20,642 nucleotides of DNA from Amoebophrya sp. A120 (taxonomy: Eukaryota; Protista; Dinoflagellata): contig CAJINV010000026.1 in assembly GCA_905178155.1 (NCBI GenBank), forward strand, positions 132,814 through 153,455, written 5' to 3'. The position numbers and the translations under genes are program-made. This document shows, one piece after another, positions 774-19,239 of the stretch (position 1 is its first letter; each line of letters begins with the position of its first letter). Under the pieces are notes generated by a model. That model was not told the DNA's origin and ran no database searches. It worked only from the letters and a program-made list of their open reading frames with translations.

Positions 774-982
774 TATCCAAGAAAAAAACGCTGTTAGTGT
801 AAATTTGTGATGCGCAACACGCAAGCTGATTGCGTCTGTCATGCTTGGCATGCATCATAGGGTCCATTAAAGGGCGTTTTCCCGTACTATCTGCGCATGA
901 CAGGTTTTTGCTGTCATGCCAGACAAATTTGTAATGCTGTTCCTCCAAAAAAGTTACACCTACAATGTTTTTTTCTTGGATA
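774..982. mobile_element. TIR element (family B-like), in the presumed 3' UTR of the large gene
   Basis: Ends TATCCAAGAAAAAAA...TTTTTTTCTTGGATA. Exact direct repeat TCAAC at 769-773 and 983-987. Confidence 0.9.
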
Positions 983-997
983 TCAACTGCAATAATA

Positions 998-3900
998 TTA
1001 CCAGCCAAACTCCCGGTTCTGCGGACCATTTGGGTCGGGCATAAACACCTTCATGACCCCCGTGGGCACGAACCACGTGTCCTTTGGTAGGATGCGGTTT
1101 CCCTGGCACCGACACGAGTGGAGATGCCCGGGGGCCGATATCGATGGAAAAAGCTGTCTTAGTCTACTACTCAAAGAACCTGTGCAAATCCGGCAAGACA
1201 AATTTGCGAAACACGAACACGAGGGAAAGACGTATGAGAGACGACACGACTGTCACTGTCTTGCATCTCCAGCATGACAAAAGCAAAACACTGTCTACTC
1301 CAGGACGAGGGTCTTGCGCATTACAAGTTGAGATTGACCAGAGAATGTTTTCTCTATACGATAGCCGACCGCACGGAAATACTGCGCACGTGGAATCCGC
1401 AGTTGCAATTGTTTCCCGTGATCGTGTATCAAATGCAAATATGTCTGGGTCTGGAAGGAAAAGCAGGATGCATACTTGTAATGCTGCACGTGGATTCTGA
1501 AAAAATCTGTATTGCAGGAGCAGCAAAAGCAGTGCGTTTCTTGCTACACGGGGGGGCATTTCTGATGCAGTATGGGCGTCAGAAAGCCGTCACAATAGCC
1601 GTGATGCTAGAGCATGCATCACAGACATCGCCGGGGATGCAAAATGTGCATGACAAACTTCCCGACCCAGACATATTTGCAGTTGATATCGTGTTATGAT
1701 GCGCTCCATTCGCGTACTTTTCCCACTCCGGGTGCGAAAGCGTCTGGCAATAGAGCGCCATCACCGTGCCCTTGTTGTCCTTCTGTCGCTGCGCCACTGA
1801 ATCAATGTAATTTTGCTTCCGCTCGATTTCCTCCTTGGACAGCTTGAGCTTTTTACCACCGCTATCGAAAGGAAAGACTCCCCCTCCCCATATTGAAAAG
1901 GTATTTTTCCGCAACTTTGTGTTGCTGATTTGAGGTCACAAATCACATTCGTGCTGCAAGAAGACAATGGCAGAAGCTGCCGCCTCATTATGGAAGCCGT
2001 TTGTCATGCTGTTTGGCCTAAAGGGGAGCTGTTTGCCATGCTCGACAACTAGACCCAGGCGCCTGTGCCTAGGCTGGGTATCTGGCCGCAATGCCTTCCT
2101 GCAATACAAAGCGTATTTGTGTACACAAATCCAGCCTCAGAAATTCCGTTTTGATATGGGGAGGGGGGATTTTTCATTTTGATAACCGCGCAGATCGCCT
2201 TTCGCCTCCTCGAGGTCGTCCCAATCTTCATAAGCCGCCCGGTATCAAATGCAGATATGTCTGTTTTACTTTTGTACGGCTACGGCATTACCTGGCTTCC
2301 TTTTTCAGCATGAGAAAAATAAGTAGCGCTTTTGCGCCAAAATGTGGCGAATGGTTTTCACTTCAACTTTTTGCGCCCCACGCGCAAAAGCAAGTGCTTT
2401 GAATCACGAGCGCAATAAGATTCATGTCTCGATATCCGAGGCCCCAAAGACTGTCGCCTAATGAGCAGAAAAAAGCTCGCTTTTGTCTCGCGTATCACGA
2501 CATTATGGCGTGGGACAAATTTCTCCACCAAAATTTGAAAAATCGTTTTCACTTCAACTTTTTGCGCCCGACGCGCAAAACAAAAATCTTTTGAATCACG
2601 AACGGAATCTGATTCAAGTCTCGATACCCGAGGCCCCAAGGACTGCCGCTGAATGAGCAGAAAAAATATTTTTTTTGTCTCGCGTATCACGACGGTATGG
2701 CGGAGGGCAAATTTCTACACCAAAATTTGCAAAGTTGTTTTTAGTTCAACTTTTTGTGCCCCACGCGCAAAAGCAAAATCTTTTGAATCACGAGCGGAGT
2801 CTGATTCTAATCTCGATATCCGAGGCCCCAAGAACTACCGCTTAATGAGCCGAAAAAACCTTTTTTTTGTCTCGCGTATCACGACGGTATGGCGTAAATC
2901 AAATTTCTACGCCAAATTTTGAAATATCGTTTTCACTTCAAGTGTTTGCGCCCCACACGGAAACAAAAAGTCTTTTAAATCACGAGCGGAATCTGACTCA
3001 ATGCTCGATATCGGAGGCCCCAAGGACTGCAGCTTAATGAGCAAAAAAGTCCTCTCTTTTGTCTCGCGTATCACGACGGTATGGCGTAGAGCAAATTTCT
3101 ACACCATAACTTGCAAAGTCGTTTTCACTTCAACTTTTTGCGCCCGACGCGCAAAAAAAATCTTTTGAATCACGAGCGGAATCTGATTCAAGTCTCGTTA
3201 TCCGAGGCCCCAAGGACTGCCGCTCATTGAGCAGAAAAAAGCTCTTTTTTGTCTCGCGTATCGCGACGGTGTGGCGTAGGAAAGATTTCTACGCCAAAAT
3301 TTGAAAAATCGTTCTCACTTCAACTTTTTGCGCCCCACGCGCAAAAGCAAGTGCTTTGAATCACGAGCGCAATAAGATTCATGTCTCGATATCCGAGGCC
3401 CCAAAGACTGTCGCCTAATGAGCAGAAAAAAGCTCGCTTTTGTCTCGCGTATCACGACATTATGGCGTGGGACAAATTTCTCCACCAAAATTTGAAAAAT
3501 CGTTTTCACTTCAACTTTTTGCGCCCGACGCGCAAAACAAAAATCTTTTGAATCACGAACGGAATCTGATTCAAGTCTCGATACCCGAGGCCCCAAGGAC
3601 TGCCGCTGAATGAGCAGAAAAAATATTTTTTTTGTCTCGCGTATCACGACGGTATGGCGGAGGGCAAATTTCTACACCAAAATTTGCAAAGTTGTTTTTA
3701 GTTCAACTTTTTGTGCCCCACGCGCAAAAGCAAAATCTTTTGAATCACGAGCGGAGTCTGATTCTAATCTCGATATCCGAGGCCCCAAGAACTACCGCTT
3801 AATGAGCCGAAAAAACCTTTTTTTTGTCTCGCGTATCACGACGGTATGGCGTAAATCAAATTTCTACGCCAAATTTTGAAATATCGTTTTCACTTCAAGT

Positions 3901-6900
3901 GTTTGCGCCCCACACGGAAACAAAAAGTCTTTTAAATCACGAGCGGAATCTGACTCAATGCTCGATATCGGAGGCCCCAAGGACTGCAGCTTAATGAGCA
4001 AAAAAGTCCTCTCTTTTGTCTCGCGTATCACGACGGTATGGCGTAGAGCAAATTTCTACACCATAACTTGCAAAGTCGTTTTCACTTCAACTTTTTGCGC
4101 CCGACGCGCAAAAAAAATCTTTTGAATCACGAGCGGAATCTGATTCAAGTCTCGTTATCCGAGGCCCCAAGGACTGCCGCTCATTGAGCAGAAAAAAGCT
4201 CTTTTTTGTCTCGCGTATCGCGACGGTGTGGCGTAGGAAAGATTTCTACGCCAAAATTTGAAAAATCGTTCTCACTTCAACTTTTTGCGCCCCACGCGCA
4301 AAAGCAAGTGCTTTGAATCACGAGCGCAATAAGATTCATGTCTCGATATCCGAGGCCCCAAAGACTGTCGCCTAATGAGCAGAAAAAAGCTCGCTTTTGT
4401 CTCGCGTATCACGACATTATGGCGTGGGACAAATTTCTCCACCAAAATTTGAAAAATCGTTTTCACTTCAACTTTTTGCGCCCGACGCGCAAAACAAAAG
4501 TCTTTTGAATCACGAGCGGAATCTGATTCAAGTCTCGATACCCGAGGCCCCAAGGACTGCCGCTGAATGAGCAGAAAAAATATTTTTTTTGTCTCGCGTA
4601 TCACGACGGTATGGCGGAGGGCAAATTTCTACACCAAAATTTGCAAAGTTGTTTTTAGTTCAACTTTTTGTGCCCCACGCGCAAAAGCAAAATCTTTTGA
4701 ATCACGAGCGGAGTCTGATTCTAATCTCGATATCCGAGGCCCCAAGAACTACCGCTTAATGAGCCGAAAAAATCTTTTTTTTGTCTCGCGTATCACGACG
4801 GTATGGCGTAAATCAAATTTCTACGCCAAATTTTGAAATATCGTTTTCACTTCAACTTTTAGCGCCCCACGCGCAAAAAAAAAATCTTTTGAATCACGAG
4901 CGCGATAAGATTCATGTCTCGATACCCGAGGCCCCAAGGCCTGCCGCTTCATGAGGAGAAAAAAGCTTTTTTTTGTCTCGCGTATCGCGACGGTATGGCG
5001 TAGAACGAATTTCTTGCCCAAAGTTTGAAGATCGTTTTCACTTCAACTTTTTGTCACCCACACGCAAAAAAAAAGTCTCTCGAATGACGAGCCAAATCTG
5101 GATCAATGCTTGATATCCGAGGCGCCAGGAAAGCGGTCTCATGAGCAGAAAAATTCCTTGAGGCTTCTCGCGTATCACGGCGGCGTGGCGCAACATAAAT
5201 TCTAATTCCCTCCTACTCCTGCGTTGCATGCATTACAGATCTCGCTGCCTTTCAAATTTCGCATCAGAAATTGAGACCCAGATCGATATTTGCATTGCAT
5301 ACCTCGAGCTCCTGGTTCATTTCTAGCTGCTGCTGCTGGAAGATTCGTACCCCGCACCCGTCATCGACTTGGACTTGCGCATAGGAGTATCTTTGTCCCG
5401 TATCCAGGGAATCCTCTGGCTCGGCGTACCCAATCGAGCCGTCCAAGTCGCCGTGCCCTGACATAATGATTTTCTCGTGGGTCGCGAAAGGGATCTTCTG
5501 AATGCCGCCACGCAGACCCTGGTCTTTCGTGAAGGAGATGATCGTTTTGCCGGGGACTGCACCCTCCGGACCCAAAGGGTACACGCGGCCACCACCTCCG
5601 GGTATCATTCGCGTTTTGTACTGGGCAAGGGCCTCCGCGAGTTTTTCTTTCTGCGGACCAAGGTACCTAGTTGTAAATCACAGAAGCGACTTGAACTTGT
5701 AATGCGTATAATGCGTTGCTCTTGCAAGCCACTGGATTTTGATTTTGATCAGCATTGATGTAAGTATTCTGAGAACAACTGCGCGCATGGTACTAATTCA
5801 TTGACTCATTTATTCCACATGTAGACCTCCACGCAAAGAAGCAAAAGTAGAACCGAAGATGTATAGAGAAAAGGCCTCACCACACGCAGGCCTTTGCCAT
5901 CATGCTCTTCGAGTTGTAAAAGTACTTTATCAATACCCCTTGTCGACACTTGTTATGCCCAATTGTACGAGTTGATTGTAGTCTGCCATGCTCAACCTGC
6001 CTTCCCGCATGTCCAGTATGACATTGCACAACTCCCCCTCCTGTCATTTGTATAGCATGAACGGCATGTGACAAGCATCAGCAAGAAAGCCGGTTTTGCA
6101 TGAGAAATGTACACTGGAGTGTAGTGCAAGTGCTATTTGGGCCGCTACCAGAACTTGTCATGCAAACAGTGCCATAGGGCAACGACTGGAGTCTGGGTTT
6201 TGCATGACAAATGAGGCGGAGGGGGAGTTGCGCACTGTCATATCCAGAGCTGGGTCTTCAAACGGCAGCCCGGCCGCGGTGCCGCCTTCGTTCTCCCAGT
6301 TGGATGCATTGCAAATCTGTCTGGGTCTGGGAACTTCTTGTGATGCAAATTTACAAATTGCGCGGGCGCTGCAATATGCAACCCAGCATGACAAGTTTTT
6401 GCGCTGCTGTGTGTTTCGTTTTTCGCACGACAAACTGCGTGGTTGCATGACAGGCAAGCGGCCCTTTTCCTGCTCATGCATCACAGATTTAAGAGTCACG
6501 CCAGACACACATGACAAACTTGCATTCTTCCAGACCCAGACATATTTGCAATTCATAAGTTGGATGTCATAGCATCTTTCTGCTCGCCCTTGTGGTCAGC
6601 GGCGGTCACGGGCCCGCGTTTTTTCTTTTTTCGGCCCACATTCTTTATCCGGTCCCACATCTTCCCTCCTTTTGATTTCGCATCCTTTTTTTTTCCTCCC
6701 GATTTTTTATTCTCGTCGTGGTCCTTGCTCTTGCTCTTCCCGCGATCCGAGCTTCTGGAACTGCTTTTGCTGCTCCCTCTATTAGAACTCCGGCTGCTGG
6801 TACTCGTTGCTTCAGCTTCGGTATCCCACGAAAAAAGTGTTACAGTTACACATTTGTAGTGAATTCAGCAACACAAATTTCTCTGCATGAGAGAGAAAAC

Positions 6901-9900
6901 TTGTAATGCAGAAATCCTACAGGAAAACACCTATGAAACGAGGATCCGATGCACATCCGGCATGACAGAGCTTGTTTGTCTTGCTTGGCCTGCAACACAA
7001 TGTGTAACTGTAACACTTTTTTCTTGCGATATTCGGCCTCTGGAGCCCCACCCTCATCTCCGCCGGCTTGATCATCTGCGTCGTCTTTGCCGCTACTGGA
7101 AGAACTATTTTTCGTCTTTTTCTCGCTTTTTTTACTACTACTTCCCTTGATCTTGTTAACCAATCCGTCCTTCGCGTCCCTTAACTTTTCTTTTGCGCCT
7201 TTCAACTTTTCTTTCATCACGCTTTTCTTCTCTTTGCTGCTGCTCTTGCTCGTGCTTGTCCCTCTGTTGCTGCTTCTTGTACTGCTCTTGCTGCTAGTAG
7301 ACTGGTCTTCGTTAGTACTATCCTTCGAGCTGCCGCGTCTGCTGCTACCTCTACTGCTGCCTCTGCTGCTACCTCTACTGCTACCTCTACTGCTGCCTCT
7401 ACTGCTTGTTGCAGCTTCGTCTTCATTCTCCTTGTCGCTGCTGCCTCTACTGCTTGTCTTCGAGGAAGACGAGCCTCTCCTCGACGAAGACGAGGAATCT
7501 GCTCTCCTGGATGAAGACGAGGAATCTGCTCTCTTGGATGAAGACGAGGAATCTCTCCTGGATGAAGAGGAGGAGGGCCGCGTGAATGTCTTTTCCGTTC
7601 GTTCGACGTTTTCCTCCAAAAACGCAGGCTGGAGGTCTTCATCTTCCACGAGAGCTACGTCTTCAAGGATTTCATCTACTGCAGCAGGTGGTCCATGATC
7701 TACTTCCTCGTCTGCTTGGTCAGGTCCTCGCTGCTGTCCTAGATTTATTTCTGGCTGGTATTTTTCCGTTTCAACATCTTCCACCAGAAACGACTCTCCT
7801 TGTACAACTTCCTTATCCTTTGTTGAAGATGGCGTAGGATAAAAATCTTTGTCCCCTACTTTCTCTGATACTTCTGCACCAGTATGATCTTCTACCGCCG
7901 CCCCCACGTCGTCTGGTTGGTGTACTTCGGTCCTCTCCCTGGCAGGAACATTTGCATTTGCATGAAGGTGAACATGATCTGTTCCATCGTCGTGCAATAA
8001 ACCATCTTCGTCCACCGTCGTGGTTTGTTTTTCGTTTTCCTCAGCCCGTCGTGAGGGGGAAGAAATTATTCTGTCATCCTCAACCTCCTCCTCAACCTCT
8101 TCATTGAAAACGAAACTGGACTCCGGTAGGGGCTCAGTCGTGTCTACTTCCGGGTCGTCATCTGGCGGAGCAGTACCAGACTCGGTTGTACTAGGATCAT
8201 AACGACCATCGGTTTCTTCTTGTTCTCCACCGTCGTGGTCATATGATCTCCCACGTCGAAACGGTCCCTCGTCATGGTCCTCGTGGTTGTGAAGATGCGC
8301 GTCATCATCTCCATAGAAGTCCTCGTCCTGGTGGTCATCTGCAAGGAAGGAATGATGCGCGCTGTCTCTGACAACATCATTCTCTCCGATTTCGTAGTCA
8401 TGACCGCGTTCTTCATCACCGTCGAGTTCCTCCTCTACTTCTAGCATGCTCTATCAAATGCAAAAATGTCTGGGTCTGGAAACTTGCGATGCTAAAAGTG
8501 AATGGTAGACGGACTGCAGTACGCAGCTATGTATGACAAACTTTTTGGCTCCCATGTCTTACGTATTCCGCATGGCAAACTGCGTTTTTGCATGACAGGT
8601 AAGAGGGCCTTTTCGTGCTTATGCAACGCAGATTCTCGACTCATGCCAGACAAGCATGACAAACTTGCATTCTTCCAGACACAGACATTTTTGCATTTGA
8701 TATGTTCCCGGTTTCGTCAAACGCAAGCGGCTCGTCCTCGTCTTCGCGGAAATATTCCTGTATGAAATGCAAAAGCATCTATACTACGTAGTGATTGCAA
8801 TACAAATTCACTTAGCATGATAAATGAAATCGAGAAGGGTACGCTGTGGGACCTAAAAAGCAACCGCTTCCGCTCCTGTAGCCTCAAAAACCAGCGCGGC
8901 CGCCGGAGAGTACTCCCCTCGTGATTGGCCTTGTAAATGTCACGCGATTTGCATCGTGTGGCGACGCAGTCCGCCCGTGATTGTGCTTGCTTTGAGGAAG
9001 CGTTTCAAAACAACACAAAAAACGACCGAAGTGGCCGAGTCCCGTGCTGTTTGCCGCCGGATTTGGGGGCGCGGCAAACCGGCGCACATTTTGCGCGGCA
9101 GTCCTCTGGCCCAATTTGGACCGCCCCGGGCGACCTTCCCCCGGTCTACCTCGATTTCGGGGGAGGATTCCGCAGAGGATTCCGGAGAGGATTCCAAAAT
9201 CCTCTCCGGAATCCTCTGGCCCAAGTTGAGCCGTGTTTCGCGCCCTTTCCCCGACGGCACGGCCTCGATTTCGGGGGAGGATTCCACAGAGGATTCCGGA
9301 GAGGATTCCAAAATCCTCTCCGGAATCCTCTGGCCCAATTTGGGCCGTCTTCCGCGCCCTTCCCCCGATGGCACTGCCCCGATTTCGGGAGAGGATTCCT
9401 CAGAGGATTCCTCAGAGGATTCCAAAATCCTCTCAGGAATCCTCTGGCCCAATTTGGGCCGTCTTCCGCGCCCTTCCCCCGATGGCACTGCCCCGATTTC
9501 GATCGGGAGAGGATTCCACAGAGGATTCCTCAGAGGATTCCAAAATCCTCCCAGGAATCCTCTGGCCCAATTTGGGCCGTCGGTCTTCCGCGCCCTTCCC
9601 CCGATGGCACGACCTCGGTTTCGGGGGAGGATTCCACAGAGGATTCCGGGGAGGATTCCAAAATCCTCTCCGGAATCCTCTGGCCCAAGTTGAGCCGTCT
9701 TTGGCGCGCGCCCTTTCCCCGACGGCACGACCCCGATTTCGGGGGAGGATTCCGCAGAGGATTCCAAAATCCTCTCCGGAATCCTCTGGCCCAAGTTGAG
9801 CCGTCTTTCGCGCCCGTTCCCCGACGGCACGACCTCGATTTCGGGGGGGGATTCCACAGAGGATTCCGGAGAGGATTCCGAAACCCCCTCCGGAATCCTC

Positions 9901-12900
9901 TGACCGGATTGGCGCCGTCCTTCGCGGTCTTTCCCCGGCGGCACGGCGTCGATTTCGGGAGGGGATTCCGGAGAGGATTCCTCCGGAGCCCTTTCTCCCG
10001 TGGTACGCACTACCTCATCCGGGAGGATTTCCCCGGGGACATGGCGGACCCCCCGAAGCGAGGGCGGACCCCCCGGGGGCGAGGGTGGATCCCCCGGAGA
10101 ACGGGCGGATCCCCGGAAAGCGGGCGGATCCCCCGGAGAACAGGTGAATCCCGCGGGAAGCCGGCGGATCCCCGGGGAACGGGCGGATCCCCGGGAAGCG
10201 GGCGGATCCCCGAGTAGCGGGCGGATCCCCGAGTAGCAGGCGGATCCCCAGGGCGAAGGCGGATCCCCGGGGAGCGGGCGGATCCTCGGGGCGCGGGCGG
10301 ATCCCCGGGGAACGGGCGGATCCCCGGGGAACGGGCGGATCCCCGAGTAACGGGCGGATCCCCTGGGCGAAGGCGGATGGATCCCCTGGGCCAAGGCGGA
10401 TCCCCGGGAAGCGGGCGGATCCTCGGGGGGCGGGCGGATCCCCTGGGGGAAGGCGGATCCCCGGGGAGCGGGCGGATCCCCGGGGAATGGGCGGAGGGAT
10501 TCCCTGCGCGAAGGCGACTCCCCGGGGAGTGGGCGGATCCCCTGCGCGAAGGCGGATCCCCGGGGAATGGGCGGGCTCCTGGGCGAAGGCGGATCCCCGA
10601 GTAACGGGCGGATCCCCTGCGCGAAGGCGGATCCCCGGGGAATGGGCGGGCTCCTGGGCGAAGGCGGATCCCCGAGGAACGGGCGGATCCCCTGGGCGAA
10701 GGCGGATCCCCGGGGAATGGGCGGGCTCCTGGGCGAAGGCGGATCCCCGGGGAACGGGCGGGTCCCCGGGAAGAGGGCGGATCCCCGGGAAGAGGGCGGA
10801 TCCCCGGGGAAGTTGGCGGATCCCCGGGATGAGGGCGGATCCCCGGGGGCGAGGGCGGATCCCCGGGGAACGGGCGGATCCCCCGGTCGAGGGCGGATCC
10901 CCTGGTCGAGGGCGGATCCCCGGGGAGCGGGCGGATCCCCGCGGGCGAGGGCGGATCCCCCGGAGAACGGGCAATCTGTTTCACGGGCGATATACGTGCT
11001 CCACGGTATTTAATTTCCCACAAAATAACAAGCAACCTTCGTAGTTCCGTCGTGTTTCGCGTTTTAGGTCTCAGAGCGTACCGGTCTCATGAAATTTGTC
11101 ATGCTGATTTGCCTTAGCAACGAGATTTGGAATGTATGACTGCGATTTTTACTACGAGTACGATACTTTTGCACAGGATATCCTGCTCGTCCAGCGGCTG
11201 GTCGTGGTAAACGATGTGACTTTGATCTTCTGCATCGTCATCCAGATTCATTTCCATCCCGTCGCCGGGAGCCGGGCTGTTGTACGTACCTGCTTCAACT
11301 CGGTGGTCATCGTCTTCGCGGCCCATATTTTCATCCTCATCGCCGTAGTCTCTGTCGTCATGATGATCTTCTAGGTCCGCATACTCCAGAAACCGCTCGT
11401 CTTCGTCTTCCTCTGTGTTGTCTGCTCTGTACATGATCCTTCGTGCTGGCAGCTCTGGCTGTAGTTCTTGATCTTGATCATCCACCGTCGGTAGTTCCTG
11501 GTCTCCTTCGTCGAAGAATACGTCTTCGTTGATTTCGGGAAAGTTTTCTAGCAAGGCTTGCTCCGGGTGGAAGTCTTCTTCATCTTCATCTTCTCCTGGT
11601 GCATCTACCGCACTACCTTCTTCAAAAAACTCGTCGTCCTTGTTCGGTGCAACTGGGAAGTGGTTCTCCTGCAGTTCGCGGTCGTGGAACTCATCGTCAT
11701 TTTCATCGACGCTGGCCAACATCTTCTCCTGATTTTTCTCACCCTGCTCTGTAATTTTCCTCTGGTCAATCTGTAAAAAATCCTCGCCACTTGGCGACAT
11801 TGTCCCGACTCCAGCCTGCGCCGGAGCAGCTTTATTTCCCATATCGATTTCTTTCTGCACCAGCATCGGATGCACTTCCGGTACCCCGGTGCTGCGCCAG
11901 AGGTGCCTCTCGGTGCCGTCTTTCATTTTTACTACCACCCTCTCCTATCAAATGTAAAAAGTGTCTGGGTCTGGAAGAATGCAACTTGTGATGCTGCGTC
12001 TGCATTATCCAAAAATCTGTATTGCATGAACAGCAAAAGAGGTCTAGTTTTGGCCACGGCGAGAGGGCATTTCTCATGCGGTATAGGCACAAGAAAGCCC
12101 TCACAAGATCTGCGATGCTAGGGCATGCATCGTAGACATCAGGAGTCACGCAAAACGTGCATGACAAACCTTGCATCCTTCCAGACCCGGACATTTTTGC
12201 ATTTGATATCTCCGCGAAGTCTGGGTGGATAGTATCCCTTGAAAAAACTGCTTCACTCTGAGGTGTGATGATTTTGCAAGATCTGCATCACAAGTTTGTT
12301 AATACACATGACAAAGAAAACTTGGCATGCGTGCTTCCTAAAGGAAGAACACACAGCTAGAAATCCAATGTCTTGCATGTGTAGCAACACAAACAAACTT
12401 GCATTCCGTTCTATGCATCACAAGTTTGCAGTGAAGCAGTTTCAGTTTTTTCTTACGATAGATGAGGCCGCTTCGGTAATCCGGATGATCTTCGTCCCAG
12501 AAATCAGGGTGGAGCGCGTATTATGCGTAGCAAAAATGTCTGGGTCTGGGAAGTTGCAACTTGTAATGCTGTCTTTGAATTCCAAAAAAATCTGTATTGC
12601 ATGACCAGCAACGGGGGTCCAGTTTGTCTTACGTGGAAAGGGCATTTGCATTTCTCATGCGGAATGGGCATTAGGAAGCCCTGTAAAGAAAAAGATCTGT
12701 GATGCTAGGTCATGCATTACAGGCATCAACATCATGGATCATACGAGATATGCATGACCAACCTGGCAACTTTCCAGACCTAGACATATTTGCATTTGAT
12801 ACGTATAATTTGCCTGACGCCGCGTGGAGGTTTTCTGCTCCCTCTACTGGTGCATCTACTAGTGCTTCACCGTCGTTATTCGCTTGTTGCAAGAAAGAGC

Positions 12901-14030
12901 TTTGTTGTTCTACTGGCGGTGGTGGTTCTTTTCTTTCAAAAGACGTTGCGCCGTCTACGTGCTTTGAAGATGAAGATGACGACAAAGCCGCCTGCGCCTC
13001 CCTATCGTCGTCCGGTGAGACAAAACCGTTCCCAACACCCAGCCGCTCATCATAGTCATCGCTGACATCGTATCCCAAGAAAAAAGTGTATACAGTTACA
13101 CATTTGTTCGAGTTTCTGCATCACAAATTTTCTCTGTGTGGCAGGCACAACTTGTAATGCAAAGATCATAAGGGAAAACAGAAAGGAAACGAGCCTCCCA
13201 AGCATTTCCTGCATGAGAAAGGTTGTCTCTGTTGCTGGTCTTGCATCATAATGTGTAAGAACTGTAACACTTTTTTCTTGCGATACACCCAGCCGCTCAT
13301 CATAATCATCGCTGACATCGCCCTCCGGTTCTACTACGGAGGAAGATAGGAGGTTTTGATCGGCTTGTGAAGCAGAAGCATAGTCGTCTGGTGATGTCGC
13401 GGCTTGACCTCCGCTACTATTTGTTCCGTGGTCACCGTTTCTTCCCTTCACCGTGTCCAGCTGCGTCCAGAAAAGGAAAAGGAGGAGAAACATCCAGTAA
13501 AAGCCGTTTCGGACAAGCAAGATTGGTTTCAATTGCGATAGGAGGTAATAGTGGTGAAAAACTACCCGGTCGGTTTTTCCTGTTTTCGTTTTTCGCCTCG
13601 CTCGGTTGTGTGCGTAGATTTTGCTGGTGGAGGAAAGAGGTGGTGCTGCAGACTTTTTCAAATTTGCGATCGTCGACAAGGAAATAAATGATTGGCGCTC
13701 GTCTTTTTCGGAATCAGGTGAGGCGGAAGCTGTACTGTCGCTGGACCTGAAACAGGACGCGGACGATGTTGGAAAAAGACTCTGTATGCCGCATGGCTGC
13801 ACTTGTTTTTGTCTTCCCGAGCACCACTTGTGGCCCGTGTATGATCCGGCGTGCTTGGGTGGTGACGTTGACGAAGAAGAGGGTGTCGCGGGAGATGCAG
13901 GTACAACTAACCGAAATTGAATCCGCTCTCCGAATGGTGTTTCTGCAAACGCGGCGGTCGGCTTTCTTGGAGGAACACCTCCGTCGACACCACCTGCACC
14001 ACTAGGCACGGTCGCCATTGCGCTGGCCAT
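998..14030 (-). CDS. Large 15-exon protein of unknown function (~1483 aa). It has a hydrophobic TM/signal-like segment near aa 165-190, long D/E-rich and S/R/K-rich low-complexity regions, and a Cys/His-containing C-terminus.
   Basis: Manual splicing, counting each direct repeat once. Exons: 14030-13286, 13035-12802, 12516-12461, 12227-12209, 11940-11181, 8755-8703, 8446-7032, 6816-6558, 6297-6243, 6011-5937, 5666-5302, 2237-2185, 1857-1689, 1421-1364, 1133-998. Total 4452 nt (divisible by 3), no internal stop, ends TAA. It links ORF-track fragments 13056..14030, 12710..13078, 11114..11938, 6846..8447, 5264..5608, 1579..1914 and 998..1201. Junction peptides read sensibly, e.g. GKLYALHPDFWDEDHPDYRSGLIHPDFAERVVVKMKD, DEQEYFREDEDEPLAFDETGNMLEVEE, NQELEAAYEDWDDLEEAKGDLRGGKKLKLSKEE. 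The start codon is uncertain. Confidence 0.85.
1139..1363. mobile_element. Degenerate TIR element / non-canonical intron
   Basis: Ends TATCG...CGATA with a weak TIR. Exact direct repeat GCCGA at 1134-1138 and 1364-1368. Removal restores the frame (VRS-APGHLH). Confidence 0.8.
1427..1688. mobile_element. TIR element family A / non-canonical intron
   Basis: TATCAAATGCAAATATGTCTGGGTC...GACCCAGACATATTTGCAGTTGATA. Direct repeat TCGTG. Confidence 0.95.
1863..2184. mobile_element. TIR element family C / non-canonical intron
   Basis: TATCGAAAGGAAAGACTCCCCCTCCCCATAT...ATATGGGGAGGGGGGATTTTTCATTTTGATA. Direct repeat ACCGC. Confidence 0.92.
2243..5301. mobile_element. Giant family-A TIR element / intron (3059 bp) containing a satellite array
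   Basis: Left end TATCAAATGCAGATATGTCTG; right end GACCCAGATCGATATTTGCATTGCATA. Flanks CCCGG/CCTCG match 3/5. Removal plus 5 nt keeps the frame (ELE-AAYEDWDD). Confidence 0.8.
2354..5205. repeat. Satellite of ~15 monomers of ~191-192 bp, organised as a 957-bp 5-mer higher-order repeat
   Basis: CACTTCAAC-like anchors at 2359, 2550, 2742, 2934, 3126, 3316 ... 4273 ... 5039. Near-identical ORF translations recur at 2358/3315/4272 and 2653/3610/4567 (period 957). Confidence 0.97.
5667..5936 (-). other. Canonical GT-AG intron (270 nt)
   Basis: Minus strand AAGGG|GTATTG...TTTACAACTAG|GTAC. Splicing gives in-frame SVDKGYLGPQKEKLAEALAQYKTRM and avoids an immediate TGA. Confidence 0.75.
6017..6242. 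mobile_element. TIR element (family C-like) / non-canonical intron
   Basis: TATGACATTGCACAACTCCCCCTCC...GGAGGGGGAGTTGCGCACTGTCATA. Direct repeat TCCAG. Confidence 0.93.
6303..6557. mobile_element. TIR element family A / non-canonical intron
   Basis: GATGCATTGCAAATCTGTCTGGGTCTGG...CCAGACCCAGACATATTTGCAATTCATA. Direct repeat AGTTG. Confidence 0.92.
6822..7031. mobile_element. TIR element family B / non-canonical intron
   Basis: TATCCCACGAAAAAAGTGTTACAGTTACACATT...AATGTGTAACTGTAACACTTTTTTCTTGCGATA. Direct repeat TTCGG. Confidence 0.95.
7330..7575 (-). repeat. Coding tandem repeats, (SSRG)n and SSSSRR(A)D
   Basis: 12-bp units CTACCTCTACTG and ~27-bp units CTGGATGAAGACGAGGAATCTGCTCTC lie inside the 8446-7032 exon. 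Confidence 0.9.
8452..8702. mobile_element. TIR element family A / non-canonical intron
   Basis: TATCAAATGCAAAAATGTCTGGGTCTGGAA...TTCCAGACACAGACATTTTTGCATTTGATA. Flanks TGCTC/TGTTC match 4/5. Confidence 0.95.
9103..9990. repeat. Tandem repeat, ~8 copies of ~106-118 bp, with 12-bp subrepeats and an internal palindrome
   Basis: CCTCTG anchors at 9103, 9213, 9327, 9441, 9559, 9677, 9783, 9897, with GAGGATTCC subunits. Confidence 0.95.
10020..10972. repeat. GC-rich minisatellite, ~20-21-bp unit GGGCGGATCCCCGGGGAAC, roughly 45 copies
   Basis: GGCGGATCCCC recurs continuously across the interval. Confidence 0.95.
11946..12208. mobile_element. TIR element family A / non-canonical intron
   Basis: TATCAAATGTAAAAAGTGTCTGGGTCTGGAAG...CTTCCAGACCCGGACATTTTTGCATTTGATA. 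Direct repeat TCTCC. Confidence 0.95.
12233..12460. mobile_element. TIR element (family B-like) / non-canonical intron
   Basis: TATCCCTTGAAAAAACTGCTTCACT...AGTGAAGCAGTTTCAGTTTTTTCTTACGATA. Flanks GATAG/GATGA match 3/5. Removal gives GLI-HPDFAE. Confidence 0.87.
12522..12801. mobile_element. TIR element family A / non-canonical intron
   Basis: TATGCGTAGCAAAAATGTCTGGGTCTGG...CCAGACCTAGACATATTTGCATTTGATA. Direct repeat CGTAT. Confidence 0.93.
13071..13285. mobile_element. TIR element family B / non-canonical intron, flanked by a 35-bp duplication
   Basis: TATCCCAAGAAAAAAGTGTATACAGTTACACATT...GTAACACTTTTTTCTTGCGATA. 13036-13070 and 13286-13320 are identical at 34/35 positions. Confidence 0.93.
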
Positions 14031-16029
14031 GGCTCGCGGGGTGGGGAGCAGCCCGCGCTCCCACCCGCTTCATGCGTGGTTACCACGGCAAAGCTGCCCT
14101 CATCACGAAGGAGGCATGGTTTTGAAAGGCGGTTCTCTGCGCTCCATCGGTGCGGACCGCAGGGACGGTTGGTCTGTTCGTGGTCCTCGCAAATGAGTGC
14201 CGCTTATTAGCTTTGTGACAACTCCCTCGAAGCGAGACACATACAACAGCAAAACAGGCAAGGCTGCCCCTCAAACTGTACAGATGGGGATCGCGCGTTT
14301 CCTCTCAGGCGCTCGGGTGAGAAAGAGGCCTGTTAAAGCAGGCGCTGGGGCACTGCCGCTGCAACAGAAAGGCAAGAAGCCTCGCCCCGAAGGAAAACAT
14401 CGGCGCGCCAGCCTATCCCCTCGTCCGTTCTCGCACACATCGTCTCACTCCCTCCACTCACTTCGGGCTCGGCTGGCCGTGACGAAAACAATGCCACGAG
14501 CGGGTGGCGCGCGTGCTTCATCGCGCTCCGCAAGAAGTTCTTCTATCTGTACTGGTAAAACGGGCCACTTTATATAGCAGCAATGCATGCTTTTGGCGCC
14601 CGGGCCAATTCTGGCGCGGGCGGCGGCGGGAGAGCTGCGCCATTGATTATTCCACCTCGCCCGGGCAACCCACAAACGTGGGAAGAAAAGCCGGGGCTCG
14701 CGTGCCCCCCCGGCCGCCACCAAACCGCCCGGCGCGGGCCTTCGGGAATGAATAGCGGGGGGGGGGTTCGCCTCGGACGGCCGCCGATTCGCATGGCGCA
14801 GGCCGTTCTCTTTTTAGCGCGCCGGCAGGCCCACGGAGGCCCCCGGCAAACGGGGGCCAAGAATTCGGCGCCGGGGCTAGCCGCGCACCGGCGCGGCCGC
14901 TCGCTGTGCCCGCGCGTTTTCTAGCTCTGCGGCGAAGAATGAAGGGGCGGCGGGACCGTGACGGGGCGGCCCGCTTCGTGTTCGCGCCGTACGCTTCCGC
15001 ACCAGTGCGACCGCTTTCATCCGCTTCCACTTGCCACAAAGGGCGGCCGGTGCTGCGGCAGCTTCAGCGCTTCACTTGCGCGCCTGCGGGCCGGCGCGCT
15101 TCCTTGGGTGGCGTAGGCCGCGCACTTCAAATTCGCGTTTGCCAGAGGACCGCCTCAGACCCGCGCCCGTTTCTGCGCGAGCTGCGCGACTACGGTGCGA
15201 TCCCTGGAAGGGGGCGGCGGCTGAACCTTGTTACGGAAACCCGAGCCGCGCGCCATGATGCTCTTCAACCGGTCTTGTAGTGGATACACCTAATACAGGC
15301 TGGCTTTCGTCCACTGATGTGCTTGGAACTGGATGCACATCTAGATCTAGTGCGGAGGACCCGCATCAAAATCTATTGCTCGTTCACTTAGAGTGCCCTC
15401 CAACTCAATGGCCACTCTTCTCAGTGCTGATTTCCCTAACGCAATTCCTCCGCAGTATATCCTCTTCCCTAATCTTTCAAGACGTAAAATGTAGAACTCT
15501 TCCCCTTCTCTACCCTCTTCCACTCCTGTTAAATCAGGTCTCCACACACGACATTACAGGAATCTTACGCAGGACTCCATCGGAAAATCGCGCTTGGTGC
15601 CGATGTTAAGATTAGAAAAAAATCTGATCTGGGGACGATTGAGAAGACCGAACAGCGCACAAGAATACATGTTGCCAGGAAGCACTTGCACGGTGGCAGC
15701 GAGAGCTTTCATAGTGTACTAGTTGTAAGTATTTTCTGTTCGCGTTCTTTGCCGGAAGTTGCTGTTCGTTTTTGTCGGAAGTTGCTGTATGTACAGTGTT
15801 AATTTCCATCCAACAATATATACGCGTTGACGGTCTTGCTCGTTGAAGTATTCATTGTGCATAGAGAGACAATGATTTTTACATTTAATTTCGAGTAGTA
15901 CGTACGAGATAAATTTTGATTCTGTAAAGAGTTTCTGTAAAAAAAGCTTTTCGTTAAATCTGTAAGCTGTTGTTGTTCTTTTTCATTTTCAGCGCTTTTT
16001 CATTTTCCAACCACCACTTCACTTCCACC

Positions 16030-17613
16030 CTATTCCTTGCCGCTATCCAGTGAAATAAATACATCAGGATCACAAGAAAAGCTGCGTACTTTGTACCACG
16101 CTGATGTTGCTGTTGTACCAATAGGGCATAACAAGTGTGTTGCGTTTTTCTTGTGACTCTGAAGAAATATTTTCATCAGATAAAACATCTCGCCCTGTAA
16201 AGCCGCCACCGCCCTTCGCCGCTCCCTATCAAATGTAAAAATGTCTGGGTCTGGAAGAGTGCGCGATTTGTCATGCAGCTTTTCCATGATCCATGAGGTC
16301 TGGAATGCAGGACCTAGCATGACAGATTCTGTGCGATCTTTCTCATGCCTATTCTGCATGAGAAACTGCCTCCCGACTTGGTTAAAACTGGACGACTTTT
16401 GGTAATCATGCAACACAGATTTTTGCATGCTGCAGATTTAGCATGACAAGTCGCATTCTTCCAGACCCAGACATTCTTACATTTGATACTCCCGGATGGA
16501 TTGCAATTTCACCATCTGTTGCTCCATCGCATCTATCGCCTCCTTCTCGTCCTTATCAAATGCAAAAATGTCTGGGTCTGGATGATTCCGGGATTTGTCA
16601 TGCTAGTCCGGCATGGCTCTGAGCTCTGTATTGCGTGGCCGCAAAGGGCTTCTCTTGCCTGTCATGCAGAAACGCAGTTTCTCATGCGGAGTACGCAACT
16701 CTGCACCACGGAAAAACTTGTCATGCTTGGCAGTGCATTACAGTATGCGCATTTTTCCCTGGCTTGCATCACAAGTTTCCAGACCCAGACATTTTTGCAT
16801 TTGATAGTCCTTGGCCAACTGCTGGTCGAGATTGTAGTTCAAGTGGACTTCGTTCAGTATCTCCGCTGCCTTCAGCGGATTGTTTTCGACGTTGGTGGCA
16901 ATACTGTATCAAGGTCGAGACATTTCCTATCCCAGTATCGCTGTTCACGTACATGCCTTTGTAGCCCAACATGTGACCAGCAGCCAAGGACTATGGCTTA
17001 GCTATTTCGTAGCGAAATGCGGATGTTGGTGCACCGTGAGAAGATGGCGTCTTCCGCGGATTATTTTGCGTGTGTTTCATGATCACATTCCGGAAGCGCC
17101 AACTCACTTTGTTTTTGCGGAAGCAAAAAGTATACAAATTTGTCAATGGAAATGGCTGCCGCACAGACAGAAGGAAAGAGCTCTTTTCGCGAACAACCGC
17201 ATGCCACGAATGCTGGGATCGGACTATTTTCAAGCTGACACCTTTTCCTGCACACGCATCGAAACCTGCACGTTGTCCTCCGCGACGGGGAGCATGTTAC
17301 CCCGGAGCTTCGCCCGTCGCTCTGCGCGGCGCCTTGTGTTCTCCATGCGCTCTGTTGATCAATAGTTCGCTTGATTCATACATAACTTCAACTATCTCGA
17401 ATCGAGCTCATAATTATGGTCGACTATTCATTCAACATCATATTTATTCTTCAACCGCCGCATCAACATTAATAAATTTCTTCGCACAAAAAAAAAGTAA
17501 GTACTTTTTTTATCCTTCTCGGACTCCTCTCGTTTCTGTGTCGTTTTGGCGCCGAACTTGGCTGTGGTAGAAGAGCTGCCTGTCGAACTCGATCCGATTT
17601 TTGGGGGGAGCAT
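16030..17613 (-). CDS. Small charged, probably coiled-coil protein (~140 aa) of unknown function; may extend further 5'
   Basis: Exons 17613-17505, 17351-17241, 16901-16807, 16548-16489, 16221-16183 and 16038-16030 total 423 nt in frame: MLPPKIGSSSTGSSSTTAKFGAKTTQKREESEKDKKKRMENTRRRAERRAKLRGNMLPVAEDNVQVSMRVQEKVATNVENNPLKAAEILNEVHLNYNLDQQLAKDEKEAIDAMEQQMVKLQSIRERRRAVAALQGEMFKE*. The first and last junctions are less certain than the middle ones. Confidence 0.7.
16044..16182. mobile_element. Probable short decayed TIR element / intron
   Basis: TATCCAGTGAAATAAATACATCAGGATCACAAGAAAA resembles the reverse complement of the right end, TATCTGATGAAAATATTTCTTCAGAGTCACAAGAAAA. There is no intact direct repeat. 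Element plus 5 nt is 144 nt (frame-neutral), and read-through is also open. Confidence 0.55.
16227..16488. mobile_element. TIR element family A / non-canonical intron
   Basis: TATCAAATGTAAAAATGTCTGGGTCTGGAAGA...TCTTCCAGACCCAGACATTCTTACATTTGATA. Direct repeat CTCCC. Confidence 0.95.
16554..16806. mobile_element. TIR element family A / non-canonical intron
   Basis: TATCAAATGCAAAAATGTCTGGGTCTGGA...TCCAGACCCAGACATTTTTGCATTTGATA, a perfect 29-bp TIR. Direct repeat GTCCT. Confidence 0.96.
16907..17240. mobile_element. Decayed TIR element / intron
   Basis: TATCAAGGTCGAGACATTTCCTATCCCAGTAT resembles the reverse complement of the right end, TGTCAGCTTGAAAATAGTCCGATCCCAGCAT. The direct repeat is lost, but removal plus 5 nt gives in-frame VQEK-(V/I)ATNVENN. 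Confidence 0.65.
17352..17504 (-). other. Canonical GT-AG intron (153 nt), AT-rich
   Basis: Minus strand AAAAAAA|GTACTTAC...ATCAACAG|AGCGCATG. Splicing gives in-frame EKDKKKRMENT. Confidence 0.65.
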
Positions 17614-19239
17614 GTAGCGTCCCCGGCGAATAATGCAGAGACAAGATGTGGGACAAGAACCCAATTCAAACCTGGAGTCTTCGACTTAGAGTCTGTAACT
17701 GTACGAACATGCACTGAAGTCGTTGAATGACACATGATTGGCTGCTACATTGCAGCTGTTGTCGTTCTATCTCGTTTTGAAATTCTTTCTGCAACGAGCC
17801 CGGTTGTCAGCCACGGCGCACCGTTGGAAATACTTACGATACAAATGGCGCATGTGGCTTTTGCTTTCTTTCATGCAGACAATATACGGCTCGCAGTATA
17901 ATCGCGATGATCGGTTGTTGACCCATGAATGTTCGGAGATATCGACGTCCGGTAGCGCCTTGCTGCTGGAACTGAGTATCAGACTTCAAAATACCGCCAT
18001 TTTCGCATATTCTAAGCTGGAACAATCAAGGTTCTCAATACCGCAAAACGTATTATGCCTTGTTTCGGGGCGGCAAGACAGTGCATAATCATGACAAGTT
18101 TCAAAGAGATAAACTCAACAATGGCGAACGGAATTCGTACCAAGTGACCAACTTTGCCTTTCTGTGAATATGCGGGGGCTGGACCCGGTATTTGTGCTTG
18201 ATAACCAAGTTGAAGCTCGTGTCTTGATCTGTTGTTGAAAGTTGAAAAGTTCGGTTGAAAAATTATTTATTACACAGTTCCATAAATAGCACGGGCCGAC
18301 GGATAGTCATCTTTCAGGATCGAGTCAATCATTATCATCTTTTCTCCCTCCATATCCATTCTCGTAGCACAGGATCACGAAACAACAAAATCACAATCAG
18401 ACCAAGAAGCAGTAGTTAGAATACAACTGAGCGACGAGACGGTGCTGACAGTGGAGATCGGGGACTGCAGAACCTCTTGCTCTTTTTCCTGCTCTCCGCG
18501 GAAAAGGTCCCACACTGTGGTCCCGTTCCATTTCGGGACAGGCGGCAGATGATGTGGTCGCTTGTCCATGTTCCCTCCTTCTCAAGCAATGAACAACCAC
18601 AACGCGCTGCTATTGATTACGACGAAAAAAAATGGAAAACGCTACGTATCTATTAGCGCCATATTCTGTTCATACAGTTTGGTAAAAGAATTCAGGTAGA
18701 CTGCGTCACCAACGCGAAAAGGAAAAGGTAAGGGGCGGCTTTTATTTTCGCTTCACATATTGCAAAATAAAAGTGATCTCGACATACATAGCGCGAAAAC
18801 GACAGCACGACGGGCGAGAGTAGACCGACGACAACTCAAACGGATACTCGATACGATTCGAAGATAAGTGCGCCATCTCTTCGTAGCAACGCACGATCAG
18901 ACGCGCCCGTGACACCGAGGGCCAGTACGTCGACACCAAGGCCCGAAAAAGAACAAACGGAATCCGCGTCGAAAAGACTACTTTAATGAAACTAAGTAAA
19001 AATCAATAGGAATAAACAACGAGCTCGACGACCACGACTTCGTGTAACGATCACGACGAACTTCTACTCTCAACCACTGCTCCCACGGGAAATCGTGTTG
19101 GCTCTTAAGCATGCGCGTGCAACCATCACTACTGCCAAAAACTCCGCGACTTATTATCCAAACCCTCCATCGTCGGACTTTATTGGAGCGGTGACGGGCG
19201 GCATTGGCATTGCGGCGTCGAGCATCGTTATACACTCCG

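What the first reader, a model, noticed from the sequence alone, without database searches (positions are those of the whole stretch)
1364..16553. Neighbouring elements are repeatedly 58-65 nt apart
Seen: gaps between adjacent elements are 63 (1364-1426), 58 (2185-2242), 60 (6243-6302), 58 (8703-8760), 61 (12461-12521) and 65 nt (16489-16553), i.e. 6 of 16 within-gene gaps. The rest range from 24 to 1420 nt, and long exons stay element-free. Inference: new insertions may be directed to a fixed offset from an existing element end, analogous to the fixed-offset targeting of Tn7-type systems, which also make 5-bp duplications. Chromatin phasing or an exon-size constraint could also explain it. 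The sample is small.
Basis: partly seen in the sequence, partly recalled or inferred. Interest (0 to 1): 0.7.

Follow-up and report, generated by a model that had tools for sequence, protein, structure and literature searches.

The report
Intron-forming transposons sit 35-90 bases apart
In this window and in a close relative's genome, likely marine parasitic dinoflagellates, small transposons that are spliced out as introns sit 35-90 bases from one another far more often than chance allows and almost never closer, likely because new copies are steered in beside existing introns, a rule that would cut genes into roughly 55-base exons.

Summary
The six gaps are real at the stated coordinates (6 of 15 gaps between 16 elements). 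The elements are TAT..ATA inverted-repeat MITE introners with 5-bp duplications, matching those described for Amoebophrya A120; six are spliced out in transcript-like contigs. In 571 kb of a close relative (484 elements, 351 gaps) the pattern replicates, but as a broad zone: 3 gaps under 30 nt, 144 at 30-89 nt (plateau mean 62, SD 15), 18 at 150-249. The 58-65 bin is no denser than the rest of the plateau (p=0.65), and a narrow fixed-offset model fits as badly as an exclusion-only model. So the Tn7-like fixed offset is rejected, while 'insertion near an existing element' is supported. Neighbours are unrelated, the gap ignores element length, nothing nests, and there is no nucleosome-sized second peak. 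Predicted canonical introns show the same hole and a weaker hump. One asymmetric family points a particular end at its neighbour regardless of gene strand, hinting at DNA-level targeting. Best reading: end-anchored targeting at insertion (0.5); rival: splicing-based selection (0.27). I found no report of the spacing rule in ten literature searches.

The parts
1364..1426 (-). 63-nt gap (58-nt exon after removing one duplication) between elements 1139-1363 and 1427-1688
2185..2242 (-). 58-nt gap (53-nt exon) between elements 1863-2184 and 2243-5301
6243..6302 (-). 60-nt gap (55-nt exon) between elements 6017-6242 and 6303-6557
8703..8760 (-). 58-nt gap (53-nt exon) between elements 8452-8702 and 8761-11180
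12461..12521 (-). 61-nt gap; 56-nt exon seen in a spliced contig
16489..16553 (-). 65-nt gap; 60-nt exon seen in a spliced contig
12209..12232 (-). 24-nt gap (19-nt exon), the one case inside the exclusion zone; seen in the spliced contig
774..982 (.). 209-nt TIR element, perfect 5-bp duplication; lies just past the stop codon of gene 1 (3' UTR, inferred)
1139..1363 (.). 225-nt TIR element with degenerate ends, perfect 5-bp duplication
1427..1688 (.). 262-nt TIR element (family 0)
1863..2184 (.). 322-nt TIR element (family 6)
2243..5301 (.). 3059-nt element filled with a 192-bp tandem array; duplication 3 of 5
   Evidence: frame stays open after removal
5667..5936 (-). predicted canonical GT-AG intron of gene 1; leaves a 75-nt exon next to element 6017-6242
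   Evidence: longest frame, 1506 aa; not RNA-checked
6017..6242 (.). 226-nt TIR element (family 8)
6303..6557 (.). 255-nt TIR element (family 2)
6822..7031 (.). 210-nt TIR element (family 10)
8452..8702 (.). 251-nt TIR element (family 2), duplication 4 of 5
8761..11180 (.). 2420-nt element with a family-1-like right end, filled with 114-bp and 19-bp tandem arrays; perfect 5-bp duplication
   Evidence: spliced contig piece ends at 11181
11946..12208 (.). 263-nt TIR element (family 0), spliced out
12233..12460 (.). 228-nt TIR element (family 5), spliced out; duplication 3 of 5
12522..12801 (.). 280-nt TIR element (family 0), spliced out
13071..13285 (.). 215-nt TIR element (family 10), spliced out; flanked by a 35-nt direct repeat instead of 5 bp
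16227..16488 (.). 262-nt TIR element (family 0), spliced out; folds as a long hairpin
16554..16806 (.). 253-nt TIR element (family 2), spliced out; folds as a long hairpin
998..14069 (-). gene 1: 1506-codon open frame once 13 elements (each with one duplication copy) and one predicted canonical intron are removed; acidic low-complexity protein with no family above cut-off
15738..18460 (-). gene 2 (ends approximate): eight introns from RNA joints: two called elements, three degenerate non-canonical introns, three GT-AG introns (one read with a shifted cut)

Best explanation
These TIR introner transposons lie 35-90 nt from one another in excess and almost never closer than 30 nt, likely because the integration machinery is steered, at the moment of insertion, to a broad exposed zone just outside an existing intron boundary, most strongly an element end. 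Shown: the spacing rule, its anchoring to element ends, its indifference to family and element length, scarless splicing, and a weaker version of the rule at predicted canonical introns. Inferred: a protein complex bound at resident ends (the shared transposase or a host chromatin or splicing-linked factor) covers the first 30 bp or so of flank and the element interior, and recruits or exposes DNA for an incoming element within about 85 bp, at roughly 5-8 times the background rate. Each new element then seeds its own zone, giving pairs and chains while long exons stay empty. A minimum exon size for splicing probably contributes to the hole. No transposase or tethering factor was identified.
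For: Replication in a relative: 144 of 351 gaps at 30-89 nt and 3 below 30; stable over four thresholds and among 182 pairs lacking the search pattern, 70 of them at 30-90. Within single reading frames 114 of 208 spacings fall at 25-84 nt against about 45 (uniform) or 55 (minimum-exon) expected. A growth model with a hole plus a broad boost fits best (chi2 15, against 108 for hole only and 177 for uniform). No gap-length correlation with either neighbour (rho about 0.03). Short gaps are not autocorrelated, and chains exceed any single patch. Elements are scarce where selection should be weakest: 1.58 per kb in modelled exons, 0.20 in canonical introns, 0 nested against about 38 expected; decayed remnants are too few to fill the deficit (49 segments). 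The share with a close neighbour is the same (0.62-0.67) in all five identity classes. Family 1, the large family with the most unlike ends, has a close neighbour at its R end in 37 of 65 cases and at its L end in 16 of 60 (family-wise p=0.008), whichever way the gene runs (R 15/26 and 10/21; L 5/21 and 5/27). The excess sits in pairs where it looks younger (27 R to 8 L, and 24 to 8, by two age proxies; 9 to 8 and 10 to 8 when older). Nearly all families share a subterminal motif (407 of 475 elements), so family-blind recruitment is plausible.
Against: Predicted canonical introns also show the hole (1 against 7.1 expected) and a hump (2.4 per kb against 7.4 from element ends; 5.3 against 8.6 in element-rich genes), so TIR ends are not required. 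The orientation bias is post hoc and appears in 1 of 11 families. A third age proxy (TSD/TIR mismatch, confounded by family 1's unlike ends) puts it in the older member instead (21 to 8), and the window's own family-1-like element faces its neighbour with the other end. Motif number at an end does not predict a neighbour (109/307, 139/365, 39/93). Scarcity in introns could reflect fast deletion there. Almost no clearly non-coding pairs exist for a selection-free test. Codon-phase bias (160/96/73) and more GT/GC-AG registers in clustered elements (20/205 against 4/124, p=0.03) suggest that selection also shapes the sites. Age proxies are noisy, since well under 1% of a genome of A120's size was sampled.
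Confidence: 0.5

Rival explanations
1. Selection through splicing: elements insert anywhere in genes, but those under 30 nt from another intron create unspliceable exons and are purged, and those within about 85 nt are spliced better (cooperation across short exons in a lineage reported to lack U1) and fix more often.
For: The hole and a weaker hump also occur at predicted canonical splice sites; codon-phase bias; clustered elements more often have a GT/GC-AG register; 17 of the 20 elements with the worst TIR pairing are clustered; U1 was not detected in A25 or A120 (PMC7789003, passages).
Against: A minimum exon size alone does not produce the excess. Isolated elements are about 39% of the total, and elements with a long exon on one side are spliced. 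TIR quality is not better in isolated elements (4.0 against 4.4 mismatches, p=0.19). Frame-preserving exons are no more enriched in close pairs than in far pairs (46% against 50%). The strand-independent end bias of family 1 is hard to obtain at RNA level. Selection should spare intronic and nested copies, yet these are the rarest.
Confidence: 0.27
2. Intrinsic hot patches: exon sequence or chromatin defines accessible patches that are hit repeatedly, independent of resident elements, with tiny exons removed by selection.
For: Two paralogs in L009 carry elements of different families only 2 nt apart (one case). Sites lie in slightly GC-richer exon DNA (0.55-0.56 against 0.54).
Against: Chains of 35-85 nt steps span up to about 600 nt, short gaps are not autocorrelated (Fisher p=0.16), and density peaks at 65-75 nt rather than falling with distance; a decaying-attraction model fits worse (chi2 28-32 against 15). 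No flanking sequence signature stood out.
Confidence: 0.1
3. Nucleosome phasing as in algal introners, or Ty1-like use of two sites about 70 bp apart on one nucleosome positioned against the AT-richer intron.
For: The hazard peaks at 65-75 nt, close to the roughly 70-bp spacing of Ty1 hotspots (PMC3545840, passages). Elements and introns are AT-richer than exons (0.43-0.44 against 0.55 GC). A small bump at 245-275 nt (8 events, post-hoc p=0.02).
Against: Pair correlation stays near 1 beyond 100 nt with no second peak; the gap does not compensate for element length; ATAC-seq in another dinoflagellate shows no nucleosomal signature (PMC11071213, passages).
Confidence: 0.08
4. Tn7-like fixed offset of about 58-65 nt, or local hopping, or duplication of element-plus-spacer units.
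For: The window's six gaps are tighter than the relative's plateau predicts (p=0.005); 5-bp duplications.
Against: 58-65 holds 25 of 138 plateau gaps (expected share one sixth, p=0.65); a narrow-offset model is rejected; neighbours are of the same family in 9 of 116 close and 11 of 112 far pairs and are no more similar; 132 spacers show no mutual homology; neighbour ages are uncorrelated.
Confidence: 0.03

Closest known systems
Amoebophrya A120 introner elements (Farhat et al. 2021, PMC7789003; passages, sections 5 and 12, supplement search)
   Same: Inverted repeats starting TAT, seven looser bases, then an A run; 3-5 nt direct repeats; about 240-nt non-canonical hairpin introns; no internal transposase; exon and intron GC similar.
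   Different: The passages and supplement text I searched contain no analysis of spacing between elements ('nucleosome' 0 hits in the main text, 'distance' 0 in the supplement). The species was not confirmed directly here.
Algal introners that insert in nucleosome linkers (Huff et al. 2016, not held and so recalled; as summarised in PMC9860276, passages)
   Same: MITE-like introners with TIRs and duplications whose sites are constrained by something other than the target sequence.
   Different: Here the preferred spacing is sub-nucleosomal (35-85 nt), anchored to element ends, with no second peak at nucleosome multiples.
Tethered integration of Ty1, Ty5 and Tf1 (PMC3545840, passages)
   Same: Targeting to a zone beside a bound protein rather than to a sequence; hotspots about 70 bp apart.
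   Different: The landmark here appears to be another intron or element, there is one broad zone with no periodic series, and no integrase or tether is identified.
Tn7 and CAST fixed-offset targeting (PMC9308760, passages; listing)
   Different: Spread is SD 15 nt rather than a fixed distance; no general orientation rule; attraction instead of target immunity; eukaryotic non-autonomous elements.
IS3EU/GingerRoot DNA transposons (PMC10045372, passages)
   Same: TA..TA termini.
   Different: Those usually make 6-bp duplications, these 5 bp; no transposase was found to test kinship.

Membership tests
Amoebophrya A120-type introner elements | Inverted repeats starting TAT, seven looser bases, then at least three A | tested here: met
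   position matrix of 622 ends (TAT was required by the strict caller; the A run at positions 11-13 was not); family ends
Amoebophrya A120-type introner elements | 3-5 nt direct repeat at the borders | tested here: met
   exact 5-bp repeat in 154 of 213 elements called without that requirement
Amoebophrya A120-type introner elements | Removed from transcripts as non-canonical introns | tested here: met
   6 of 6 called elements in the laid stretch skipped in contigs of run X3, whose RNA status is the tool's guess; 13 removals give a 1506-codon frame
Amoebophrya A120-type introner elements | No internal transposase | tested here: inconclusive
   typical elements are 150-320 nt; six loci elements over 600 nt have open frames of at most 238 aa, not scanned against Pfam; one window long-element frame has no Pfam hit
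Amoebophrya A120-type introner elements | Host is Amoebophrya | not testable with these tools
   no genome held; the gene 1 segment has no homologues; assignment rests on element features
Tn7-type fixed-offset targeting | Insertion at a fixed distance from the landmark | tested here: not met
   SD 15 nt; narrow model chi2 108-191 against 15
Tn7-type fixed-offset targeting | Single orientation | tested here: not met
   10 of 11 families unbiased; family 1 about 2:1
Tn7-type fixed-offset targeting | Target immunity around a resident copy | tested here: not met
   exclusion only under 30 nt, then a several-fold excess
Tn7-type fixed-offset targeting | 5-bp target duplication | tested here: met
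Nucleosome-linker-phased introners | Spacing peaks at nucleosome-repeat multiples | tested here: not met
   pair correlation near 1 beyond 100 nt; weak 245-275 bump only
Nucleosome-linker-phased introners | Sites coincide with mapped linkers | not testable with these tools
   no MNase or footprint data available
IS3EU/GingerRoot | TA..TA termini | tested here: met
IS3EU/GingerRoot | Usually 6-bp duplication | tested here: not met
   exact repeats of 5 bp in 154 of 213, of 6 bp in none
IS3EU/GingerRoot | IS3-related DDE transposase | not tested
   no autonomous element found in the window or loci

The most novel reading that the evidence does not exclude
Introns beget introns at a set reach: the introner integration complex is recruited to existing intron boundaries, in an oriented way for elements with unlike ends, and drops new introns 30-85 bp away. 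Iterated, this self-seeding rule drives genes toward exons of about 55 nt, and this genome is caught midway through the process that gave Symbiodiniaceae their median exons of 51-53 nt (PMC7789003 Table 1; plateau exon mean here 57 nt).
Probability: 0.2. Interest if true: 0.85.

Novelty: new variant of a known kind. Interest (0 to 1): 0.62.

Why it matters
What sets intron positions and exon size is a long-standing open question, and core dinoflagellates have among the shortest exons known. Here a quantitative spacing rule (exclusion under about 30 nt, a 5-8-fold excess out to about 85 nt) is visible in a genome undergoing mass intron gain. It is sub-nucleosomal, unlike the linker phasing reported for algal introners. 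If it acts at insertion, it is a transposon that uses introns as landmarks; if it acts through selection, it reveals how signal-free hairpin introns are recognised without U1. Either way, two close strains with polymorphic elements make the question directly testable.

Tried and rejected
No genome is held for the window, and the loci's records are not searchable as handles, so the genome-wide test used loci of a relative. TIR pattern scans of viral contigs and genome contigs found nothing. No RNA holder was listed on record; three raw-read RNA runs laid 0-3 reads and were no test. The first self-trained gene models over-predicted chains of tiny exons and were discarded. Rejected: local hopping, composite or duplicated units and simultaneous paired insertion; transcription-direction age polarity (53:55 by identity); gap compensating element length; gene-specific offsets (ANOVA p=0.28); avoidance of cross-pairing TIRs (p=0.80); selection for frame-preserving short exons, since the mod-3 excess is explained by phase bias; helical periodicity (Rayleigh p 0.007-0.74 over eight periods on a peaked distribution, not interpretable); a nucleosomal second peak. 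The L014/L037 indel is not an element. Pfam, Atlas and homologue searches on gene 1 pieces gave nothing above cut-off. Three look-ups of earlier findings were empty. Huff et al. 2016 is not held. Supplements of the bioRxiv preprint on dinoflagellate introners and all figures were not visible and may bear on novelty.
Full report
1. What is in the window. An end-library caller built only from other contigs (0 calls in reversed control sequence at the threshold used) finds 16 elements, each bounded by TAT..ATA inverted repeats and, in most cases, a 5-bp direct repeat. Removing 13 elements with one repeat copy each, plus one predicted GT-AG intron (5667-5936), opens a 1506-codon frame on the minus strand. 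Contigs of run X3 (RNA by the tool's guess) skip all six called elements in the laid stretch 11000-19180 and give exons of 56, 19 and 60 nt. Under uniform insertion the clustering in gene 1 has p=0.0002.

2. What the elements are. Their ends, repeats, length and hairpin fold match the introner elements described for Amoebophrya A120: TAT, seven looser bases, an A run, and 3-5 nt direct repeats (PMC7789003, passages). The elements are therefore a known kind. The taxon is inferred from these features; no genome is held, and the one gene 1 segment searched has no detectable homologues.

3. Independent test. The 70 loci listed in its table all come from one assembly; flanks were fetched for 80 only. 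They merge to 151 segments of 578 kb; two duplicates (L014, L098) were dropped, leaving 571 kb and 484 elements. Laying runs on L018 shows a close relative of the organism that holds the window, with about 3-5% exon differences and shared elements. Of 351 gaps, 3 are under 30 nt, 144 at 30-89, 36 at 90-149 and 18 at 150-249. The plateau has mean 61.8 and SD 15.0 (n=147). The 58-65 bin holds 25 of 138 gaps in 38-85, as expected for a flat plateau (p=0.65), and the shape is stable across thresholds, locus lengths and pairs lacking the search pattern. Further tests used segments of 2 kb or more (386 of the 484 elements). Within 81 continuous reading frames, 114 of 208 spacings fall at 25-84 nt against about 45 (uniform) or 55 (28-nt minimum), 2 fall under 25 against 23, and 150-500 is depleted. 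Sequential growth models give chi2 177 for uniform, 108 for hole only, 108-191 for a 56+/-3 offset, 28-32 for decaying attraction, and 15 for a hole plus a broad 5-8-fold zone. Against this reading, six gaps within one 8-nt window out of 14 would arise only 0.5% of the time from the relative's distribution, so the window is unusually tight; post-hoc choice is my untested explanation.

4. Properties of the rule. Close neighbours are not relatives (same family 9 of 116 close, 11 of 112 far), show no age polarity with transcription (53:55), and the gap is independent of either element's length. Ages of neighbours are uncorrelated, and the share with a close neighbour is 0.62-0.67 in every identity class. 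Spacers are unrelated to each other. Short gaps are not autocorrelated. Pair correlation is 0.05 at 0-20 nt, 2.1-2.9 at 40-80 nt and near 1 beyond 100 nt; a bump at 245-275 in nearest-neighbour hazard (8 events, p=0.02 post hoc) does not appear there. Elements sit in exons (329 of 386; 1.58 per kb) and are rare in canonical introns (0.20 per kb), in unmodelled DNA (0.31 per kb) and inside each other (0 against about 38 expected). Most sites outside the model still lie in open frames, so a selection-free test was not possible; three gaps in AT-richer, weakly coding DNA (65, 85, 54) do fall in the plateau.

5. Canonical introns. A self-trained gene model recovered the 6 RNA-supported introns of one L018 gene that the caller had not called, to within 2 nt (two of them had seeded the splice matrices, so the check is not fully independent). 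From 229 predicted canonical boundaries the rate of meeting an element at 25-90 nt is 2.4 per kb against 7.4 from element ends (p=1e-9). In genes with three or more elements it is 5.3 against 8.6, with equal far rates. A cluster-preserving within-exon null gives 26 against 18.2 (p=0.017) for exons of 200 nt or more and 10 against 8.9 for 400 or more, with a hole of 1 against 7.1. Short canonical-bounded exons carry 2-4 times more clusters per kb than long ones. None of 31 canonical-canonical exons is 25-104 nt, but the model would tend to miss such exons. So the effect belongs to intron boundaries in general and is strongest at element ends.

6. A hint that it acts on DNA. Family 1 (149 nt, 71 copies, consensus ends differing at 5 of 30 positions) has a close neighbour at its R end in 37 of 65 cases and at its L end in 16 of 60; the family-wise p over 11 families is 0.008. 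The bias holds whether R points upstream (15/26) or downstream (10/21) in the gene. It is concentrated where the family-1 copy looks younger by best identity (27 R, 8 L) or by divergence from consensus (24, 8), and absent where it looks older (9, 8; 10, 8). A third proxy based on TSD and TIR mismatches gives the reverse split (older 21, 8) but is confounded by the family's unlike ends. The other ten families show no significant bias, and the window's family-1-like element faces its neighbour with L. This is post hoc and needs replication.

7. Mechanism. I favour end-anchored targeting at insertion (0.5): something bound at resident boundaries blocks about 30 bp and recruits or exposes the next 55 bp or so. 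The bound factor, the tethering and the timing are inferred; only the spacing and its properties are shown. Splicing-based selection (0.27) explains the hole, the canonical effect, the phase bias (160/96/73) and the excess of GT/GC-AG registers in clusters (20/205 against 4/124), but not easily the scarcity in introns or the strand-independent end bias. Intrinsic hot patches (0.10) have one supporting case, independent insertions 2 nt apart in paralogs. Nucleosome phasing (0.08) and a Tn7-like offset (0.03) are weakly supported or contradicted.

8. Literature. Ten searches gave no report of this spacing. Term searches found no spacing analysis in PMC7789003 (passages, sections 5 and 12, supplement text), the dinoflagellate introner preprint 10.1101/2020.10.14.339549 (term counts only, all zero), PMC12130899 and PMC9860276 (passages), or two reviews (passages). 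Huff et al. 2016 could not be read; its linker-insertion result is taken from PMC9860276 and recall. Figures, preprint supplements and subscription papers were not visible, so novelty is provisional. Tn7 target immunity is from PMC9308760 (passages), Ty1 tethering and its 70-bp hotspots from PMC3545840 (passages), IS3EU termini from PMC10045372 (passages), and the absence of a nucleosomal ATAC signature in Breviolum from PMC11071213 (passages). Table 1 of PMC7789003 lists median exons of 53 and 51 nt for two Symbiodiniaceae against 265 nt for A120; the plateau exon mean here is 57 nt (n=118). That match motivates the novel case but is only a coincidence of numbers so far.

9. Verdict. New variant of a known kind; interest 0.62.

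Noticed in passing
window 13036-13070 and 13286-13320: Element 13071-13285 is flanked by a 35-nt direct repeat (34 of 35 identical) instead of 5 bp; the transcript keeps a 30-nt duplication (ten codons). It could be recombination between alleles with insertions 30 nt apart, or an aberrant long duplication. No such case was found in the loci.
   Followed up: partly
window 2243-5301 and 8761-11180: Two giant elements filled with tandem arrays (192 bp x 14.6; 114 bp and 19 bp) still behave as scarless introns by reading frame; each has a 58-nt neighbour.
   Followed up: partly
window 12228-12463 and 13065-13288: Two imperfect duplications constrain the splice register: the 5' cut lies 0-2 nt before the terminal UAU and the 3' cut 3-5 nt after the terminal AUA, if one register holds for both.
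   Followed up: partly
loci L001-L162: No nested elements (0 against about 38 expected) and strong scarcity in canonical introns.
   Followed up: partly
loci L001-L162: Insertion sites show codon-phase bias (160/96/73 of 329) although removal is scarless and the duplication has little sequence preference.
   Followed up: no
loci L001-L162: An 8-nt internal motif recurs 30-45 and 60-85 nt inside the ends in 407 of 475 elements across nearly all families; a candidate protein-binding site.
   Followed up: partly
L009 9416-9679 and 14795-15118: Paralogous genes (72% amino-acid identity) carry elements of different families only 2 nt apart; one paralog has a cluster of four elements there, the other a single one.
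   Followed up: partly
L018 7337-7340: A contig of run X1 carries about 167 extra nt with a short overlap here, likely a strain-specific element; it is not near a called element.
   Followed up: no
window 16040-16183, 17628-17942, 17973-18204: Three RNA-supported non-canonical introns with degenerate ends that the caller misses; 16903-17241 is a GT-AG intron with an element-like 3' end.
   Followed up: partly
window 19249-20642: 98-bp tandem array of 14.4 copies running off the window end.
   Followed up: no
window 998-14069 (minus): Gene 1 encodes a long acidic, serine-rich protein; the pieces searched have no Pfam hit above cut-off, and one segment has no homologue.
   Followed up: partly
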